In this document: in pieces, positions 2,095 through 27,775 of the stretch
Layout: every line of letters begins with the position of its first letter
How positions within the stretch are numbered: position 1 is the first letter of the stretch
Origin: Glaucostegus cemiculus
Lineage: Eukaryota
NCBI GenBank assembly: GCA_976551045.1
Contig: CDPCPM010000598.1
Location: 930,001-994,000, forward strand
DNA length: 64,000 nucleotides
Reading direction: 5' to 3'
Position numbers and translations under genes: made by a program
The notes under the pieces: model-generated
Database searches by the model: none
What the model was told of the DNA's origin: nothing
Seen by the model: only the letters and a program-made list of their open reading frames with translations

Positions 2095-2305
2095 CTCAAA
2101 TATCTCTTCCCTGGAAACCTCAATGCGACAGTGACCAGCCTGGGGCTGCTGCTGTGACAGCTCTTGTCTGAGGATCTTGAGCTTTTGGACCAAGTCTCGT
2201 TTATATCTAGGCACGGTAAGGCATTCAGCTTCATCAGGCAGGAGAATCGGAGGGGCCGGAGGGGGTTGCTGCTGTTGTTGCTGTTCTTTCAGGTGATTCT
2301 GGCGA
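2095..2305 (-). CDS. SMURF2: SMURF2 exon 11 (211 nt), linker and HECT N-terminal region: RQNHLKEQQQQQQPPPAPPILLPDEAECLTVPRYKRDLVQKLKILRQELSQQQPQAGHCRIEVSREEIFE
   Basis: Lies within ORF 2044..2421(-); acceptor tttttctatccag, donor gtagag. Confidence 0.97.
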
Positions 2306-16100: not shown

Positions 16101-18981
16101 TCCCTTTTTGACTTGTTATTTATTGGATGCTTAACAAAATAAATTTAGATAAAACTGATTCTTAAATCACTTCTTGTGACTGTCCGTCACTATCAAAAAA
16201 GTGTGCTTTGTCGAATATTTAAACATTGCATCATTATATTAAAAGTGTTCCTACAATTTGAGAATATACCACAGACTTCTGGGCAAATTATTTTATATTC
16301 TTTTCTTTTGCTGGAAGTCCTTCAAATTTAATTAACTTCAAATACATCCTGACTGAAAGTGGAAGACAAACAGTTCCCAGTTTTTGTCAAAACTGTCCAG
16401 CAATGGCTGTTAAGATGAATATAGCAGCTTTCATGCAGAACTAGCCTCTTCCCCTCGAGAGGAGGAACCTGACCTCACTATGGATCCTGGAGCCAACAAC
16501 TTCCAGCCCTCCATTGTATGACACAACTCATTTTCCAATGTGATGAATCACCCATGTTATGCAATCTAGCAATAAGACCATTATTCACAACTAAACATGG
16601 TGTGAATGTTTTCAAAAATCAGATTGGATCTGATTGCAGAAGGTGACCGAATCTGATGGCAGCAGGAATAAGACTTCAATGGAGGAAACAGTCCAAGATG
16701 ATGGAAACATGAAGTCAACTACCAGCCCTATGTAAATTTGCTCTAGAAAAAATTAAGTCTAGGGTATTAGTTGCCCAACAAACAAACAAAATTAGCACGG
16801 GAACAGGAGTGCAGGTAAATTGGAGAATAGTAGAGGATGAAAACACATTCACTAGAAGTTCAACTGCAGAGCTGCAACTTCATTACAATATCACATGGGC
16901 AACTTCCTTTGGTTCATTAGTTTCATTTCAAAGACATTTAAAAACACATTTCAATAAACCCTTTGGCACTATATGTTATATAAAGTAACTAGTTGAAAGG
17001 TAAGAGGATTACTGTACAGCACAACCTGAAAATAACAGCTTGCTATGAATTTGGGTCACAATCCTCTATTACAGAATGGTGAAAGCCACCTTAAAAGAGA
17101 TACCAAATTTATCTTGGAAAGCATTTAAATAATAGTCTTATAGAACCTACAACCACGAAAATACTTGGCTTGGTTTTTCCAAGTCTAGCATGCCAGAACA
17201 CCATTTCCTCTTAAAAAATGCCAATATCATCAGAAATTCAATCACCAAGGGCAAAGTCTGCAGATGACTCTTCAAACAAATTAGATTTATCTCTTTAGAG
17301 CAATTCTAGCTCAGTGCAGTTATCACTGGATCACCACTGATGAAACACCAAAATTCCCATATTTAGGAGGCCTGTTGGCTCTTCTAACCTCATTTTGCCA
17401 CAATATCAATGCAACAGGGGCAAAGCTGATTTTAAGTTTAACATTATTTTCAAATATTATTAAATTCCATTCAGGACTTAATTTCCAAGTTCACACAATG
17501 AGAGAGGAAAGGAAAAGGACAAAGATATGAAAATGAGAAAATGACAGTGATACCAAATAATACACCGCAAGTAATGCGTACAATTTTATAACCTGTTCAA
17601 CACATAATAGTAGCTGCAGAAAGAATGATTTAAATTAAGAGCTAAGTAGAGCCTACAAATTAGGAGATGAACTGTTGTGGAAAACATTACACTTGGTGCA
17701 GAGATAAAACCAGTTCTAATGTTGGGCAATTTAAAAACTAAATAAAAACACAAACATGAAAATTTAATGCATTAGCGTGTTTGAATGAATATAAAGTTGT
17801 TCTCTTAAGTGGCCACTTAGAAATATTTCACCAATGAGCTTTTAAATGTGCCATAATATGCCCTTTTCTAATTGATCAAGAGTACTACTTTGATTTTGAA
17901 CTAGTCATTGTAGAACTGTGAAGTAAAACTCTAAAACTTTAGTTGAAGGCAGGTCAGCAGACTGTCTGGATTCTTTACAAAGTTAGAAAAGGCCTGACAG
18001 AATGATTTGCTCTTTTCCATTATTAAGAACTTAAAACATTTCACTGACATTTGGAAGCTGCTGAAGGAAGCTGAGTGCATTTAACTATGCATGCACAGAG
18101 ATCAAATTTCTGGATTAGAAAATGGCACAAACAGACAGTCCAGGCTCTCAATATTCACTTGCACGGAATCAAAAGTATGTTTCAGTAAAAAACTGTTTCA
18201 TTAACAAGGAAAGGAGGCAAAGAAATATACAAAGTGCCAACAGTTCCTGGCAGAACAAACTCCAGATCCCAGGTTGTCAAAAATTTGCACTGAATGCAGG
18301 TCATATGTTTTGCAGGAAGGGTGTGAGGGAAAACTGGAGGGCAAGTCAACACAAGCCCCATCAATGTGTCTGACAGCAGTCAGTAAATTACAGTAGATGC
18401 TTGGGGGCAGGTTATTTGTCTGCTGTCTTTACTGAAAAATGATGCTCATTCCTTGGAAAAGAGGAATGGAAAACCTAAATTGAATGGAGTAAAAAGTCCT
18501 TTTAAAGTCAATACTATTTATGGTTTTAGACCTTGAATAAATACATTTAAACATTTGCTGCATGTGGTTTCCACCCAGATTACACCAACTTTGGACTCTA
18601 TCCAGTTAAGAGGTCATCCCAGACAAGTGAAAATAAAGTTGGGACAAGCAGACAGTCGTCAAGATAGGATAGTGGTTTCTCGAAATGATGTTTATTACAT
18701 ACTTCTACTAACAGCAGCATATAAAAAGTAGCATCCCTCAGCCTCTGTGGTGTCTGGGTATTTACCAAAAACTGTCTGCATTTCTAGGTCACTAAATTTT
18801 TCTTACTATGAACAATATTCCTTGAACCCGTAACCTTCATTCTATCTTCTAACATCTGTTGCTTAGGTTATTTCACTGACTGACTGAAAACCAATTCAGT
18901 TGAATCATAGACAGACAGACACACACACTAACATAATAAAGCAGACCAACTTATGATGTTAGAAGGCAGAAGAAAATATAC

Positions 18982-19029
18982 TTGGTAGGATTGGGCACAC
19001 AATTCTGTTGATGAACTAGACAGGCTCTT
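18982..19029 (-). CDS. SMURF2: Candidate 48-nt in-frame cassette exon of SMURF2 (KRACLVHQQNCVPNPT)
   Basis: Branch-like CTAAT, TGC+T9CCTCCTCCCAG acceptor and gtatat donor; phase 2-2 with no stop in the SMURF2 frame. Predicted from sequence only. Confidence 0.55.
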
Positions 19030-20024
19030 CTGGGAGGAGGAAAAAAAAAGCATATTTCAAATTAGATTCCAAGTTACCACAGAACGCTGCTCCACACCTG
19101 CCAACTGCTAGATACATAGCCGTATTCACGGCATCTCAAGAACAGCATACCTACATATTCTCCCAATTGCTGAAGAGTAAATTGCGGGTTTTGTGTGGGT
19201 TAAAGAACGTAGAGCCAGAGGGAAGGAAGAATTTTTTGAAAATATATATTTAAGTATTTGACCACACACATTTAGATCAAACATTTAAAAAACTTCTTAC
19301 TTTCTGTTACTGGGAATGTATGTACACATTGTGATTGCAGCCTTTTACAGTATTTGCCCTCCCAAATGTCAGCTGTAGCTATTGGAAAAAATCCTTTTCA
19401 AAACATTCACAGTATACAATTCTCCAATTTCATTTCACTGCTGGTCTAGACAGCATAGGAACCGCATTAGAGAACCTGCTTGCGTTACACAGTTCGCTTA
19501 TTTGAATTTAAGCTCTTTGCTTTTGATCCTATTTGCAATTTTGCTCAGGAATCATTATGTTATTTACAGAATTTGACCAATGCAAATCCAATCGAGTTTG
19601 GACTAGAATAATCAAAGGCAGTGTCTGAAGTGCATTTCTTTTGTCATTTTGTTAAGTCTTCTGATGTTGAAAGAGCCTCTATGATTCTGAGGGCATTTCA
19701 CACTTCTGGTTTTGAGCCCTAAGAAAGGAACAAGGTTCATCATGCCATTTAAAACTGATTTCTGTTTCAGTAGCAAACAGAAGACAGCGAGTCTTCAGCA
19801 ACTTGACAAATGCCTGAAGTTTTTTTTTAAAACATACTCAGTCACTGAAGTATGCTAGTGGACAGATTCATTCATCAGGGATCTAAAAGTAGAAGCAAGG
19901 CTCATACAAGTCAGTCTGAGAAAGGTAACCTGGCATAATGAACTTGAATAATGTCACTTCCCTCAACATTTTCAAGATAGTATAAAGAACATCACTCAGT
20001 GGATGATATTTTGTGAAAAATCAA

Positions 20025-20670
20025 AAACGGCTGATGTTGGAAATCTGAAATAAAAATGGAAAATGCTGGAAAATCTCAGCAGGTCATACAGCATCTGTGC
20101 AAAGAGAAACAGGTTAACATTTTAGATTGAAGATCCTTCATCTGAACTGAAAAAGAGAGGAAGCAATTTAATTAGTCTAAGTAGCAGAGAAGATGGGGAG
20201 CACAATGGCTTGAACAAAGGAAACATCTGTAATAAGGTGAAATGATGTAGCCACTAAATGGACAATCGAGTTCCCTTGTCTGCGTAATGTGCTGCTATAT
20301 TGTGAGCAGGCCAGAATTACAAATGCAGAAAGGACGAGAGGAATGGTAAGCATAAATGGCCAGTTCTAAAACAGAAAGAGCAGGTTATCTGATATTGGAG
20401 AATTCAATGTTGAGTTCAGCAGGATGCAACATGCCGAGATGAAAAATGAGGCTTTGTTCCTCCAGCTTACATTGGGTGTTGTTGTATCAGTGCAGAAGGC
20501 TGCAGACAGAGGGGTCAGAGTGGGATGGTGAATTAAAACCCAGGCAATCAGAAGCTCGGTCACTCATGCGGACTGAGCGCAGATGCTCTGCAAAGCGATC
20601 GCCCAACCCGCATTTGGTTTCTCCAATTTGGAGGAGGCCACATTGTGAACAGCAAATGCACTGCACAAGA
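20025..20670 (-). mobile_element. Penelope-like element fragment (reverse)
   Basis: Reverse complement of the LLQIGETKCGLGDRFAEHL GIY-YIG region plus the terminal repeat. Confidence 0.75.
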
Positions 20671-21469
20671 GTGATGCCTTCTGAGTTCTATATAGTAATA
20701 ATCAAATTTACTTTGCACGTTGACAGTCCCGTGGACAATCCAGGTCAAGAATCAAAGCATGGGCTGCTTTTAGCATCACACATCCTTTTTAAAAACAATA
20801 TTAAATGGTTTAACAAATGGAAGTACATTTCAGACAACCACCACTGAATTTTACAGTCCCGAAGAGAAATTGTATGTGGAGTGGTCAAATTATAAGAATG
20901 CAGAACAGCATGATCCTCAAGTAAACATAGAATGCTGAAATGTGACTGTCCACAGCAGACAATTTATACATAGAATCCACTGCTTACTTTGTGCAAAATG
21001 AAGGAAAGACTACAATAATTAAAGCAAAGACATTTCACCAGTCTTACCAACTGAGGTTATAACATGCTATAACCTCAGCTGGTACAGTTTGTAAGGAGTG
21101 AAGATTGATACTTTTGAGCCTTTCCCAAAATAGTGCCACCCTTCACATTACCTGCAGACAGCAGGCTCAATTATAGTAATACCGTTACCTACTGGTCTTC
21201 ACTTAATCTTCTTCCATTTCAAGGCAATTACTTGTTAAAATATATCAGTGAAAGCCTCATTTATTTTGAGTCTCTCCACAATAGGATGCCTGTAACAGCA
21301 GTAACCTACTTTATGCCCATATAACTTACCAGCTGTTCAATAACATCAAACATGAGCTAAATACAGCACAAAAGATAGTAAAAATTACACAAACAATGAT
21401 TTATAGAAAATTAACTACAAATAACATTTGTATAACAACCTGCTGGTGGACTGGTAAATGTTGTGCCTT

Positions 21470-22790
21470 TTCTTAAGAAGGGCAGCAAAGAAAAAACTGG
21501 GAACTATAGACCAGCAAGTCTAACATTTGTGGTAGGTAAGCTACTGGAGAGGATGCTGAGATAAGATATACATACATCTGGAAAGATGGGGGCTGATTAG
21601 GGGCCGCCAGCATGGCTTTGTGCATGGGAGATGTTTTACAAACTTGATTGAGTTTTCTGATGATGTGACTAAAGAAAGTTGATGAGGATAGGGCAGTAGA
21701 CATGGTTTACATGGACCAGTAAGGCCTTTGATAAGGTTCCACATGGTAGGCTGCTCTGGAAAGTTAGATTGCATGGAATCCAGGGAGAGCTGACTAATTG
21801 GATACAATTGGCTTGATAGTAGAAAGCAGAGGGTGATGGTGGAAGGTTGTTTCTTGGACTGGAGGCCTGTGACTAGAGGTGTGCCTTTGGGGTTGGTGCT
21901 GGGCCAATCACTGTTTATCATCTATATCAACGGTCTGGATAAGAATGCAGTGGGCATGATTGGTAAGTTTGCAGATGACACCAAAATAGGTGGTATAGTG
22001 GGCAATGAAGAAGGGGGATATTAATCAGCTGAGTACGTGGGTTGAGGAATGGCAAACAGAATTTAATTTGGATAAGTGCGAGGTGATGCATTTTGGAAAG
22101 TCAAATCCAGGTTGGACTTTGTGAATAGTAAGACTCTGGGGAGTGCTGTAGAACAGTGGGAGCTTGGAGTACAAGTACATGGTTTACTGAAACTGGAGTC
22201 ACGGGTATTGGTAGGTAGGTTGGTGAGGCATCTTTTGGCACACTGGCCTTCATAAGTCAGGGCACTGAGCATATTTTGGGAGGTCATGGTGTGGTTGTAC
22301 AGGACGCTGGTGAAGCTGCACTTGGAGTATTGTATTCAGGTTTGGTTGCCCTGTTGTGGGAAAGTTTGTTGCTGGGACTTAAGGGGCTGATTTTATAGAG
22401 AAAGGTTGAACAGGGCTTTATTCCTTCCAGCAGAGGAGACTGAGGTGTTCCTATGGAAGTGTATAAAATCATGTGGGGCACAGATTGGGTGAATGTACTC
22501 AGTCTTTTTCCCCCCCAGGGTTGGGGAAATCAAGAACTAGAGGGCATAGGTTTGAGGGGAGAGGGGAAAGATTTGATAGGAATTTGAAGGGCAATTTTTT
22601 TTTAAAAACATGAAGGTTGGTATCAAGAGTAACAACTTTTCAAAAAGACAGTTGGACAGGTACATAGATTGGAAAGGTTTAAAAGGTTATGGGCCAAATG
22701 CTGGCAAATGAGACCAGTTTGGATGGGCAACTTTGTCGACAAGGACGAGTTGGGCCGAAGGGTCTGTTTCCGTGCTATATAACTATGACT
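21470..22790 (+). mobile_element. CR1 LINE, 5'-truncated and decayed (RT domain to 3' tail)
   Basis: GNYRP.SLT.VVGKLLE, QHGF, FDKVPHGRLL, GVPLGLVLG and KFADDTKIGG motifs; 3' tail gggccgaagggtctgtttccgtgct. Confidence 0.92.
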
Positions 22791-25700
22791 AAAAACTCAG
22801 CTACCCATTGAGCCAAGAAGTCCTCACAAAGTCTTTTTTTAACCTAAGCAATGGGTACCCACCCAGGCAAATTCAATCCTCCTAACATTCAAGATACTCT
22901 GCTTATCCAGTATTATCTCCCCTCTTCCTTCTCCAGTCATCTACACAATTCAAGCCATTTCTGATTGAGAAATGTTAATGGATAAAATGGAGTTATTTAT
23001 CTTTCAGACAATGCTCTAATTACTTCACCTTGTATGTTGATAGTGTAGATTCGATCCTTGGTTCGAGTCTCTCCTTCAGCACAGTACCCACGATAAAGAA
23101 ATTAAAACAAAGTATAGCAATTAATTATATAAAAAAGATAAACTTAATGCTTTTTATTGAAAACTCTTCATTGATTATGCATTGTGCCAGATTTCAATGC
23201 AAAGTAATAAAATAAAAAGCAACAATGGCTAATATTTACAATACCTACTGCACAGTATCATATTACTGGCTGCACATAGTGGCATTGTTAGTTGGCCAGA
23301 CTGGAGATGAATGGGTAATTCCTGATAACCAAGCTTGATTTTATGCATACAAGTTATAAACAACTATTCTCCAGCCACTGCAATTTCTTTTGAAACATTA
23401 TCTTTTACTGGGAAACGTTGTCATAGCTTCCATCACAAATTCTGTTTCACCTTTATCAAGATTCTGTTTTCTGACTAAATAGATTTTTCTGTAAAGTACT
23501 GTTTACTGCGAGTTTTATGCCCCAACCCACGTCTAACTGCCTGGATGAAATAGCAATGTCTACAAATGTTCTGTATTTTATTACGTCAAACTGAAATACT
23601 GGCAAGAATATGGTAGTGTAACGTAACCAAACCCCTAACACAACACACCAGTGATGTAAAAGACATCTTGAACAACATTAAAATGCTAAAGTGGATCAGG
23701 TGCTGTTTCTCAATCTACACAACAGCTTCCAAGTCTATTAGCCATGGCCAAAATCAAAACAAATAAAATAATTTTAGAGCCGAACAGATATTCTGCCCAT
23801 AACTACTCTAAACAATAATCAGATGTTCTCAATAGCTAGGTAACAGCACCAACTGTGTTTACACGGTTAAATACACGTTTTGGTTTTATAAAGCAAAGGA
23901 AATAGACAAGATAACCACAACCAATCAAGTGCCCTCCATCCCAATAATTAACTTTGTCTACTCTATTTTTCCATTGAGAAATAACAACTTGAATTTATAT
24001 AGTATTTTTAAAATAGTAAAGGTACAGAAGTGTTCTGTACATTGGGCCAGAGTGTGCTGCCAACTGCCCACCTGCATACATCTTTTCTGGATGCAGAGGG
24101 TTGTAAAAATCAATTTTCCAGATCTGAGAAGTGCAGTGAGACTGAGAGGTTTCAAGATACTTTTAGCAATTTGCCATTGAGACCCCGTTCTTGGAAAACT
24201 GATGGGCTTTGACAACTCATTGCTGTTAAAAGTTTTTCAATGTTTTTTTAAAATTTCCCTGGCAGCTGTGGACGTAACAAAAACTATCCAAAAGATCAAA
24301 TTAATTATAAATAAAATTTGCAGAAAAAAAACAAGAAGCTCCTTAGAATACTAATAATAGACATTAAAATAAAATAATCCATAGTGATGGTAACAACAAC
24401 CAAAATAAATGGGGCTCACTGTCCATATGCAAGCCAGGTCTGGAAATAATGCAAATGGACTGGATGTCGCTTGCTTCTGATCTCTTTCCAGCATGCAAGG
24501 GCTCCATGTCAGTCTGGCCTTCAGCTTGCCTTGGACTTCTGTGCAAGCATGGCCAAATGTAGAAATCCAAAATGACTGAGCAGCAAATGGGTGAATGCTC
24601 AATTCATCCCTATGAATTATCTCAAACCTACCTATACTGATCACTTCAATGTCTTTTGCAACTAACCTTTCCAACAGTGCAATTAGTCTGCATGTGGGAA
24701 AAGTTTATCCATCTTGCCTTCTTTCCCCCAAACCCAATATTTAAAAAAAATGTAGGCCCTTCAGCATTTGGACACCATGAACAATTTTTGCCAGGTTCAA
24801 TTTTCCAATTCCCTCTAAACAGCTTTACTTGGATACCTGAAATTTATTCAAAAGAATATAAATCTAATTTATTTTGCCATTTTTCTGAAAAATTCTTTGT
24901 TCCTACAATCACCTCCACTGACTACCTTGTACCTTTTCAACAGCTATAATCGTTCGCAAATTTTATTAATAGAATCATGCACAATATTTCAAATGGGTGG
25001 TCAGAGTAAATCCTTATCCAACAGCAATACAATCTCTTTATTAACTACATACCTTAACATTATACAATTTTTATTCGTCCTTAAACAAAACTGGGACTGA
25101 TCACAGAGAGGTTTTATGGTTTTCACCAATAATCCTGGATCATTTTTACTGATTACTGCTGCTGTATGCATGATTAGTATTTTTAAACTTTCTTTTAGAG
25201 CTCTTTGTTCCTACACTAATTACTTTATATTTACATTGAATTGTAACTGACATCCACTGATCAATTTAAATAAAATGCTCAAATACCCGAGACAGAACAC
25301 CTCATTTCCAAAACAAAATCTGAATAAGGTGCTTTGGGGATTGGAAAATGATCAGCAGTCCACGCTATCCTCATTGGTAGCTCATACACAGATCAAATTT
25401 GTCAAGAAAGGTTGTCCCCTTCCTCCAAATATTCCAAAGCTTGCGCACAGCACCTATATTGCCTGCTAGAATGAAAACCAGATCCAACCCTTTCTGAAAA
25501 CCCTCCTCGATAACATGTAATGTGCTGTTCATGCAACATTTTTTTGTGTCTGCAAAATGGGAACTTAAAATGGTTAGAAACGCCATTCACTCGCTTGGAT
25601 GCCTCAAGATAAATCTAATACAATAATATGAAATCTGAATTCTGCATAAATAGCATAATTTGCTCAACAAGCAAGCAATATTCTTCCATTTGAATGTTCA

Positions 25701-26530
25701 AGGAATTTTCTATCCCACAGTAATGGCTATTAAGTAAATTGCTCCATTAATAGGACGCTTGTTAAGTAATTGGACTGCATTTGACAGAACATTCTTTCTG
25801 ATCAGTGAAACCATCTGCAGCTATTCTAAACTATACCTCCATTAATGTTCAATGTAATGAACACTTGTTCTCCATCAGTTTCAAATTCATATGACAGACA
25901 CATCTCTAGCTGGGAAATTTTGTTTGGTACAAATTGCTTACTTTTTTCAGCTTCTGGGTCTTGACACTGAAAACTTATCCTATTTGCTACTGGTAATTTC
26001 CATTAGATCATGGATTGAATAGTTCTGTTATACAGTAAAAAGCCACTGCAGACACCTCAGGTGCTTGCCATGAAAGAAAATGTTAAACGTATTTTTTGAA
26101 CCATCAGATGGGAATATCATCAAAGAAAAATGCTTTTTTTCCCCCCTCAAAGCAAGACATTCTATGTAAAGGGCAGAACATAAAAGAGCAAGTGTTTGGT
26201 AACAAAACATAACTGTGAAAAGTCTGGAACATTTAACATAAATCAGAGCAGTTGGCAAATCTGAAAATATTTCAACCTTGCTAATAGCCAAGCTTCAAAT
26301 GTTTTGATGGGACAATTTAATAAGTGTACAACCAAACTATTCCAGATTGATGTCAATATCTGTTTTCAAATGCTGTTTAAACAGCTGCATTGGGAAAAAA
26401 AACAATACCAATTTAAATAATAGGACATCCAAAAACTATGTTTGAAATTCAGTGCGTATAAGAATTTGAAACTTTGACAAGATGGGTGTGAAAGGGAAGA
26501 AAGTGACAAAAAAAAAGTTCTGTTACTTAC

Positions 26531-26689
26531 TTTAAAATAAAATGCAAATTAGCAGACAACCTTGGGTCTGTAAACTGTGTTGTTCTGTTGTTGTGGTCAA
26601 CAAAGTAGACCCTTCCTGTAGCTGTGTTGCGAATTTCCCAGCCCGGAGGTAATGGCCCTAGTTCCTCACAATTTACGTTGCTAAGATCC
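26531..26689 (-). CDS. SMURF2: SMURF2 exon 10 (159 nt), WW3: [52 protein letters not shown]
   Basis: Acceptor ttgttttgcag, donor gtaagt; WW3 motif; ends in phase 2. Confidence 0.97.
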
Positions 26690-27775
26690 CTGCAAAACAA
26701 ACACAGACGGCTACCTCAGCGTACTTCATGCCAAACCAATTAAAATGGTAAGGAATACAATTCCATAATGTCAGAACAACCAGAGTGTTCCAAGAACTTG
26801 ATACTTTCTGTTAGAATCCTTTAGTATCCCAAGATACAAGCTTACAAAACCTGCACAGGCCTCAAAACTAGGTTGTCATATCATTAATCTACATTTTAAG
26901 CGCAGGTCTTAGCCAAGTGGCTTTATCCCAAAGAATAAATCCATTAAAAGCAAATGTTCCGGTACCTTTCACATTCATATTATACTGGTAGTCCTTCCCA
27001 AAGTATACAGAAACATGAAAACTTGCTTTCAACCAAAATCTTTACCGCAAAATGTACAACATATCTATGCTCTGTTACACTGCCAGCAACCAGGATAATC
27101 TGATTGCCATGTTTCTTTCAAATAAACTTTTTTAAAATTTCCTCACTGATTTAATATTCACTCTAAGAAAATGTTCCAATTCTACAACTGCATCGATCCC
27201 CCAGAGAAATCTGAAGGCAACTGACCTCTGCCAAAAAATTCTTTAACTGGGTGTCAATTGCTTTGTGACAGCCGCCAGGGTAGTTGCATTCTCTACCCAT
27301 GTGCAGAATTGTTTTGCTTCCAATTAATGTCCTACTAGTGGCAGGAATCTCTCAAAGGAAGAATTTCCAATCTTAACTTGAACATAACAATCCTTATGAT
27401 GTCACCAGCTGTTGTGAACCTCCTAACAATGGCTATTGCTAGGACAAGTTGTACTGGCTATTGTTTTGATAGGGAAATATTAGAAGGCAACCCAAAAGAG
27501 GAAATAAAATTGAAACATCTATTGTCACTGATCAGGCAGTTTCAAGTATGCGCCTGAAATTCAAACCATTAAAAATTTGATTTTTTGTTTTGCACATCAA
27601 AATTTCTCTAACACAAGAAAATCCACAATCTTACAATCTAGATTTAACTGAGTTATAAGAAACAATGCTGTCTTTTTCCCACACAAGCGGTTTATATTTT
27701 CTATCACATCAACTGAAATAATCTTGACTTTTGAGTCGCTGCCAAAGTAGACCTATTAGGCTAGGTTTCCTTTAC

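What the first reader, a model, noticed from the sequence alone, without database searches (positions are those of the whole stretch)
18982..19029. Candidate frame-preserving 48-nt cassette/microexon in SMURF2 intron 10
Seen on the minus strand: TCTAAT (branch-point-like, about 33 nt upstream), then TTGAAATA-TGC-T9-CCTCCTCCCAG with no intervening AG, then 48 nt, then GTATAT followed by U-rich and UG-repeat sequence. Exon 10 ends in phase 2, and this segment is phase 2-2 with no stop. It would insert 16 aa (KRACLVHQQNCVPNPT) between WW3 and the HECT linker. Established: short symmetric exons with a UGC motif near the polypyrimidine tract are typical of SRRM3/4-regulated neural microexons, and SMURF2 is controlled by intramolecular C2/WW-HECT autoinhibition. 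Inference: this could be a tissue-specific switch of linker length, and so of ligase activity, that is absent from canonical human SMURF2. The donor site is weak.
Basis: partly seen in the sequence, partly recalled or inferred. Interest (0 to 1): 0.7.

Follow-up and report, generated by a model that had tools for sequence, protein, structure and literature searches.

The report
Wrong exon; real SMURF2 cassette nearby
The proposed 48-base mini-exon in this cartilaginous fish's SMURF2 gene is likely an unused look-alike, while a different 45-base exon 4 kb away in the same intron is spliced into the RNA, conserved in sharks and rays, and already present in database protein records.

Summary
The sequence is as described: 48 nt (19029-18982, minus strand), AG/GT, phase 2-2, no stop. 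Its acceptor is excellent, but the donor lacks both -1G and +5G, unlike 17 of 17 real donors of this gene. As a whole it scores about as chance allows (rank 3 of 243 look-alikes; antisense control 2, 0, 1). No joint to it was listed in 4 of 4 RNA runs, and three had no depth on it; 0 of 353 fetched proteins carry its peptide. None of the four runs looks neural, so brain use is untested. Ray-finned fishes have a 16-34-residue insert at the same junction; tetrapod records lack one. It is included in non-neural tissue, so it is not a neural-only microexon. Low interest.

The parts
18982..19029 (-). The finding: 48-nt in-frame AG..GT segment; likely pseudo-exon
   Evidence: Sequence; no joint listed and depth 0 in X1, X2, X4, about 149 letters in X3; peptide in 0 of 353 proteins
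19030..19066 (-). Strong acceptor-like stretch of the candidate: branch-point-like CTAAT, TGC at -23, pure pyrimidine tract
   Evidence: Score 10.0, among the top 2 of 4054 AGs; features
18976..18984 (-). Weak donor of the candidate, lacking both -1G and +5G
23029..23073 (-). Real 45-nt phase 2-2 cassette exon of SMURF2 (+15 residues in the WW3-HECT linker)
   Evidence: Joint to exon 10 in 4 of 4 runs; peptide identical to Narcine isoforms X1/X2, near-identical in three sharks; single copy in the genome
23074..23140 (-). Weak acceptor of the 45-nt exon: TGC at -8, U-rich tract shifted upstream, no other AG within 70 nt
26531..26689 (-). SMURF2 exon 10 (WW3), 159 nt
   Evidence: reads
2095..2305 (-). 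SMURF2 exon 11 (linker and first HECT helix), 211 nt

Best explanation
The 48-nt segment is likely a pseudo-exon that the spliceosome passes over, and the short exon actually spliced to SMURF2 exon 10 in this animal is the 45-nt exon at 23073-23029. Shown: the 45-nt exon is joined to exon 10 in non-neural RNA, keeps the frame, and is conserved as protein in sharks and rays. Inferred: it is a true cassette (skipped in part of the transcripts); the candidate fails because a donor with neither -1G nor +5G pairs too poorly with U1 for a 48-nt exon to be defined; the 45-nt exon is the counterpart of the ray-finned fish insert, so an ancestral jawed-vertebrate linker exon was lost on the way to tetrapods. 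Its likely effect is to lengthen a flexible tether between WW3 and the HECT domain by 15 residues, changing reach or adding a modification site rather than touching the known autoinhibitory lock (untested).
For:: joint 23073|26531 in X1 (9 reads), X2 (7), X3 (3), X4 (one contig, depth 31.3); no joint to 19029 listed; depth 0 over the candidate in 3 of 4 runs; with about 35 reads of exon-10 depth, 0-2 candidate reads bound inclusion below about 8-17% in these runs; candidate peptide best score 25 (self 88) in 353 proteins; 7 carry the 45-nt exon peptide (scores 68-79, next best 29). Narcine X1/X2 have it, X6 lacks it. table 8: X4's 104-nt contig holds the exon plus 30 letters on each side and exon-10 contigs end at 26531, the shape expected if a skip path also exists (my inference; 31.3 of 53.4); 17 of 17 real donors and the 45-nt exon have -1G or +5G; the candidate has neither; chance-level rank; 45-nt peptide resembles 14 ray-finned inserts more than shuffles (p 0.016 with the junction residue, 0.042 without); the candidate does not (p 0.67, 0.61).
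Against: No neural RNA was tested: SNAP25 drew 0, 2, 2 and 0 records in X1-X4. Depth is thin (10-14 reads per run) and joints are listed only from 3 reads, so X3's roughly 149 letters near the candidate could hide one or two spliced reads, although one unspliced 150-nt read fits best. The acceptor is among the 2 best in the window, and the donor's matrix score (-1.1) is no worse than those of real exons 11 (-1.2) and 18 (-1.6). Only a handful of the 353 proteins are chondrichthyan, and only 15 of the 440 members of their main cluster were listed. No other shark or ray genome could be aligned. The skip junction of the 45-nt exon was not seen directly. Homology to the teleost insert rests on a modest p-value from related, non-independent sequences.
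Confidence: 0.78

Rival explanations
1. The 48-nt segment is a real tissue-restricted second cassette (brain, retina or another untested tissue), used with or instead of the 45-nt exon; a tissue-specific activator would rescue its weak donor.
For: Top-ranking acceptor, 57-nt AG-free zone, branch-point-like motif, frame-keeping length, single-copy sequence. The four runs are non-neural. UGC is reported not to be strictly required for SRRM4 response.
Against: Peptide absent from 353 proteins including annotated shark and ray isoforms; Narcine's X1 isoform is the short form plus 15 residues, not plus 16 or 31; architecture is opposite to neural microexons; donor lacks -1G and +5G; chance-level rank.
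Confidence: 0.14
2. It is a cryptic exon: included in a few percent of transcripts as splicing noise, or held down by a UG-binding repressor on the downstream GT/CT repeat, with no selected function.
For: Strong acceptor plus weak donor with a GT repeat about 55 nt downstream; the read bound does not exclude inclusion under about 10%. That UG-binding proteins such as TDP-43 repress cryptic exons is recalled, not from a call.
Against: The repeat is short (five GT units); no spliced read is shown.
Confidence: 0.08

Closest known systems
Annotated SMURF2 isoforms of Narcine bancroftii (XP_069785830/833 with, XP_069785839 without the insert), Scyliorhinus torazame (XP_072339808), Chiloscyllium punctatum (GCC32094), Rhincodon typus (XP_048448373)
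   Same: They carry the peptide of the window's 45-nt exon at the same junction, identical or with one change.
   Different: None carries the 48-nt candidate's peptide.
Ray-finned fish Smurf2 linker insert (sturgeon, medaka, flatfish, salmonids)
   Same: Same junction, frame-keeping, ends in Ser, N/G/S/Q-rich; medaka records exist with and without it (P0075, P0078); 0 of 22 exon-11-only genomic ORFs carry its motif upstream, so it is likely a separate exon.
   Different: 16-34 residues (one record 4) instead of 15, low identity; homology is inferred.
SRRM3/4-dependent neural microexons
   Same: Short symmetric exons; the 45-nt exon has a weak acceptor, upstream-shifted U tract and TGC at -8.
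   Different: Both pieces exceed 27 nt; the 45-nt exon is highly included in non-neural RNA; the candidate has a strong acceptor and its TGC upstream of the tract.
Intronic pseudo-exons
   Same: Good-looking AG..GT pairs in long introns without use; 243 such segments in this window.
   Different: The candidate's acceptor is better than nearly all of them.

Membership tests
Spliced cassette exon (48-nt candidate) | AG/GT sites, frame kept | tested here: met
Spliced cassette exon (48-nt candidate) | Junction reads in RNA | tested here: not met
   0 of 4 runs list a joint; non-neural runs only, listing threshold 3 reads
Spliced cassette exon (48-nt candidate) | Peptide present in relatives' proteins | tested here: not met
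   0 of 353 proteins; few are chondrichthyan
Spliced cassette exon (48-nt candidate) | DNA conservation in related genomes | not testable with these tools
   No relatives held; metagenome scan blank
SRRM3/4 neural microexon (48-nt candidate) | Length 3-27 nt (51 nt under the wider definition) | tested here: inconclusive
   48 nt meets only the wider definition (both definitions from abstract starts)
SRRM3/4 neural microexon (48-nt candidate) | Weak acceptor, upstream-shifted pyrimidine tract, UGC between tract and AG | tested here: not met
   Pyrimidine share 1.0 at -15..-5, TGC at -23 versus passages
SRRM3/4 neural microexon (48-nt candidate) | Inclusion in neurons, not elsewhere | not testable with these tools
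   No neural run among those laid
Alternative cassette exon (45-nt exon) | Inclusion junction in RNA | tested here: met
   Exon 10 joint in 4 of 4 runs; the joint to exon 11 lay outside the stretch
Alternative cassette exon (45-nt exon) | Skipped form exists | tested here: inconclusive
   Inferred from X4 contig shape and X3 depth; annotated skip isoform in Narcine; skip junction not seen directly
Alternative cassette exon (45-nt exon) | Conserved peptide | tested here: met
   7 proteins
SRRM3/4 neural microexon (45-nt exon) | Low inclusion outside neurons | tested here: not met
   Depth on the exon about equal to exon 10 in X1 and X2, both non-neural by SNAP25

The most novel reading that the evidence does not exclude
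Intron 10 holds two tandem short cassettes: an ancient 45-nt linker exon shared with bony fishes and lost in tetrapods, and a newly born 48-nt exon switched on in brain, so that SMURF2 of this lineage has up to four WW3-HECT linker lengths (+0, +15, +16, +31) that tune ligase activity by tissue.
Probability: 0.12. Interest if true: 0.5.

Novelty: already known. Interest (0 to 1): 0.2.

Why it matters
The candidate itself probably does not matter. The exon that is real is already in database annotations, but I found no paper on it (searches; supplement searches). It offers a small evolutionary point: fishes and sharks keep a frame-preserving exon in the SMURF2 WW3-HECT linker that the tetrapod records lack, so zebrafish-type and shark SMURF2 are natural variants for asking whether linker length matters for this TGF-beta/BMP pathway ligase. 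If the 48-nt piece were used in brain it would be a case of exon birth next to an old cassette.

Tried and rejected
Run search with the candidate stretch: no RNA holder listed; not used as evidence. A direct database search with the 15-residue candidate peptide was not possible (too short; its genomic frame is open for only 36 residues), so fetched relatives were scanned instead. Exact 22-base scan of metagenome contigs for host DNA: 0 hits, uninformative. Duplication of one short exon from the other: best local DNA match is 9 bases; rejected. Repeat origin of either piece: each 301-base stretch matches once in the genome; not supported, though that search skips common words. RBFOX motif TGCATG within 300 nt of either piece: none. 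Earlier scan findings: none near or by words. Papers on the WW3-HECT linker of SMURF2: passages of PMC12087876 and 10.1101/2023.10.14.562361 gave nothing on it. No structure prediction was run: a 15-residue insert in a linker between solved domains would not decide anything. One bird record (P0009, flagged low quality) has an unrelated insert and was treated as a model artefact. Proteins that did not match my junction pattern (230 of 353: fragments, SMURF1, unrelated cluster members, odd gene models) were left out of the insert counts but not of the peptide scan.

Full report
Observation. The window's minus strand carries SMURF2 exons 2-11, and exons 12-19 follow in the next 30 kb of the contig. 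The closest proteins are from sharks and rays. The candidate is as described: 48 nt at 19029-18982 between AG and GT, phase 2-2, no stop, branch-point-like CTAAT at -33, TGC at -23, a pure pyrimidine tract, and donor CAA|GTATAT. The stretch is single-copy in the genome search.

Is it more than chance? I scored splice sites with a matrix trained on this gene's own 18 acceptors and 17 donors (a small, home-made model). The acceptor scores 10.0, matched by only 2 of 4054 AGs. The donor scores -1.1, matched by 20% of 3692 GTs; real exons 11 and 18 score as low, so the score alone does not exclude it. But 17 of 17 real donors have -1G, +5G or both, and the candidate has neither; that these two positions compensate for each other is established knowledge, recalled. 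As a pair it ranks 3 of 243 in-frame 12-60-nt segments in 58,720 intronic bases, and the antisense control yields 2, 0 and 1 segments as good. The TGC and the branch-point motif are not diagnostic (47% and 24% of all AGs).

A different exon. Shark and ray SMURF2 proteins do have an insert between exons 10 and 11, but it is 15 residues and of different sequence. It is encoded in the window at 23073-23029, 45 nt, phase 2-2. Of 353 proteins fetched, 7 carry this peptide (Narcine X1 and X2, two Scyliorhinus records, Chiloscyllium, Rhincodon, one unnamed) and 0 carry the candidate's (best score 25 against 88 for itself). Narcine X6 lacks the insert. Of the 123 proteins that span the junction by my pattern, 84 have no insert (2 with a fish-type exon 11: Narcine X6 and a medaka record; the other 82 are tetrapod-type), 6 have the shark insert, 32 have a ray-finned type insert, and 1 low-quality bird model has an unrelated one. 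The shark peptide aligns to 14 distinct ray-finned inserts better than its shuffles (p 0.016 with the junction residue, 0.042 without); the candidate does not (p 0.67, 0.61). These inserts are related to each other, so the p-values are only a guide.

RNA. Six runs under the same species label were listed; four were laid on 18700-26800, with 18-24% of each raw run read. The joint from exon 10 to the 45-nt exon appears in X1 (9 reads), X2 (7), X3 (3) and X4 (a contig at depth 31.3; the tool guessed X4 to be DNA, but this contig skips the 3457-nt intron). Depth over the 45-nt exon is about 19, 13 and 7 against 14, 11 and 10 on exon 10, so inclusion is near complete in X1 and X2 and perhaps partial in X3. 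The candidate has zero depth in X1, X2 and X4. X3 has about 127 + 22 letters in the two bins around it, which fits one unspliced 150-nt read; because joints are listed only from 3 reads, one or two spliced reads cannot be ruled out. With about 35 reads of flanking depth, inclusion is below roughly 8-17% (mates are not independent, so this is approximate).

Tissue. To learn what this negative is worth I laid the same runs on a SNAP25 exon (found; 41 of 43 residues identical to SNAP25 chains in the PDB). It drew 0, 2, 2 and 0 records. That SNAP25 is abundant in neural tissue is established knowledge, so none of the runs is likely neural. Two things follow: the 45-nt exon is included outside the nervous system, and brain use of the candidate is untested.

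Against the SRRM3/4 reading. Passages of 10.1101/2024.09.17.613571 describe the UGC as near the 3' splice site, scan it between the end of the pyrimidine tract and the AG, and say it is not strictly required. Passages of 10.64898/2026.01.16.699960 report weak acceptors and a tract shifted to 15-30 nt upstream in neural microexons. The candidate has the opposite layout. The 45-nt exon has that layout (score -4.7, TGC at -8) but fails the tissue criterion.

Mechanism. The 45-nt insert falls at residues 344-357 of Narcine X1, after the solved WW2-WW3 fragment (to 337) and before the solved HECT constructs (from 386-390); in mouse numbering the junction is residue 339, 29 residues before Y368. Passages of PMC6639328 map SMURF2 autoinhibition to C2, WW1 and the linker residues Y241/R244 packing on HECT, with WW2/WW3 mutations barely weakening it. 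So the insert most likely lengthens a tether and does not alter the known lock; any effect on activity is untested.

Literature. Searches for SMURF2 with splicing, microexon, zebrafish or shark terms (listings and abstract starts only) showed no paper on this exon. Supplement searches for smurf2 were blank in PMC12626420 (one file not searched) and PMC5703972; the main text of 10.64898/2026.09.05.749416 has no 'smurf'. bioRxiv supplements and VastDB, where the fish exon may well be listed, could not be seen.

Verdict. The candidate is most likely an unused pseudo-exon (0.78), with a real chance of being a tissue-restricted (0.14) or cryptic (0.08) exon. The real cassette is already in database annotations. 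Interest 0.2.

Noticed in passing
window 23073-23029 (-): The real 45-nt SMURF2 cassette exon, not listed in the finding; weak acceptor with TGC at -8 yet highly included in non-neural RNA.
   Followed up: yes
window 41983, 12060, 21356, 47602 (-): Other high-scoring in-frame AG..GT segments (27, 51, 27, 51 nt). The one at 21356 has a GTAAGT donor but its bin shows no depth in any of the four runs; the others were not covered.
   Followed up: partly
window about 20035-20070 and 21630-22780: Repeat-derived stretches in intron 10 that collect reads from elsewhere in the genome (many loose ends and mismatches).
   Followed up: no
L016 and L017 (G000:C284:1928929-1929069 minus and 1862816-1862953 plus): Two near-identical SNAP25-like exons 66 kb apart in opposite orientation; a local duplication or an assembly duplicate.
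   Followed up: no
Proteins P0142, P0319, P0321, P0322 versus P0057, P0307: Teleost records show two sequence types of the linker insert; possibly two smurf2 paralogues that both kept the exon.
   Followed up: no
L003 336 to L004 9972: The intron between SMURF2 exons 17 and 18 is only about 160 nt, against 24 kb between exons 10 and 11.
   Followed up: no
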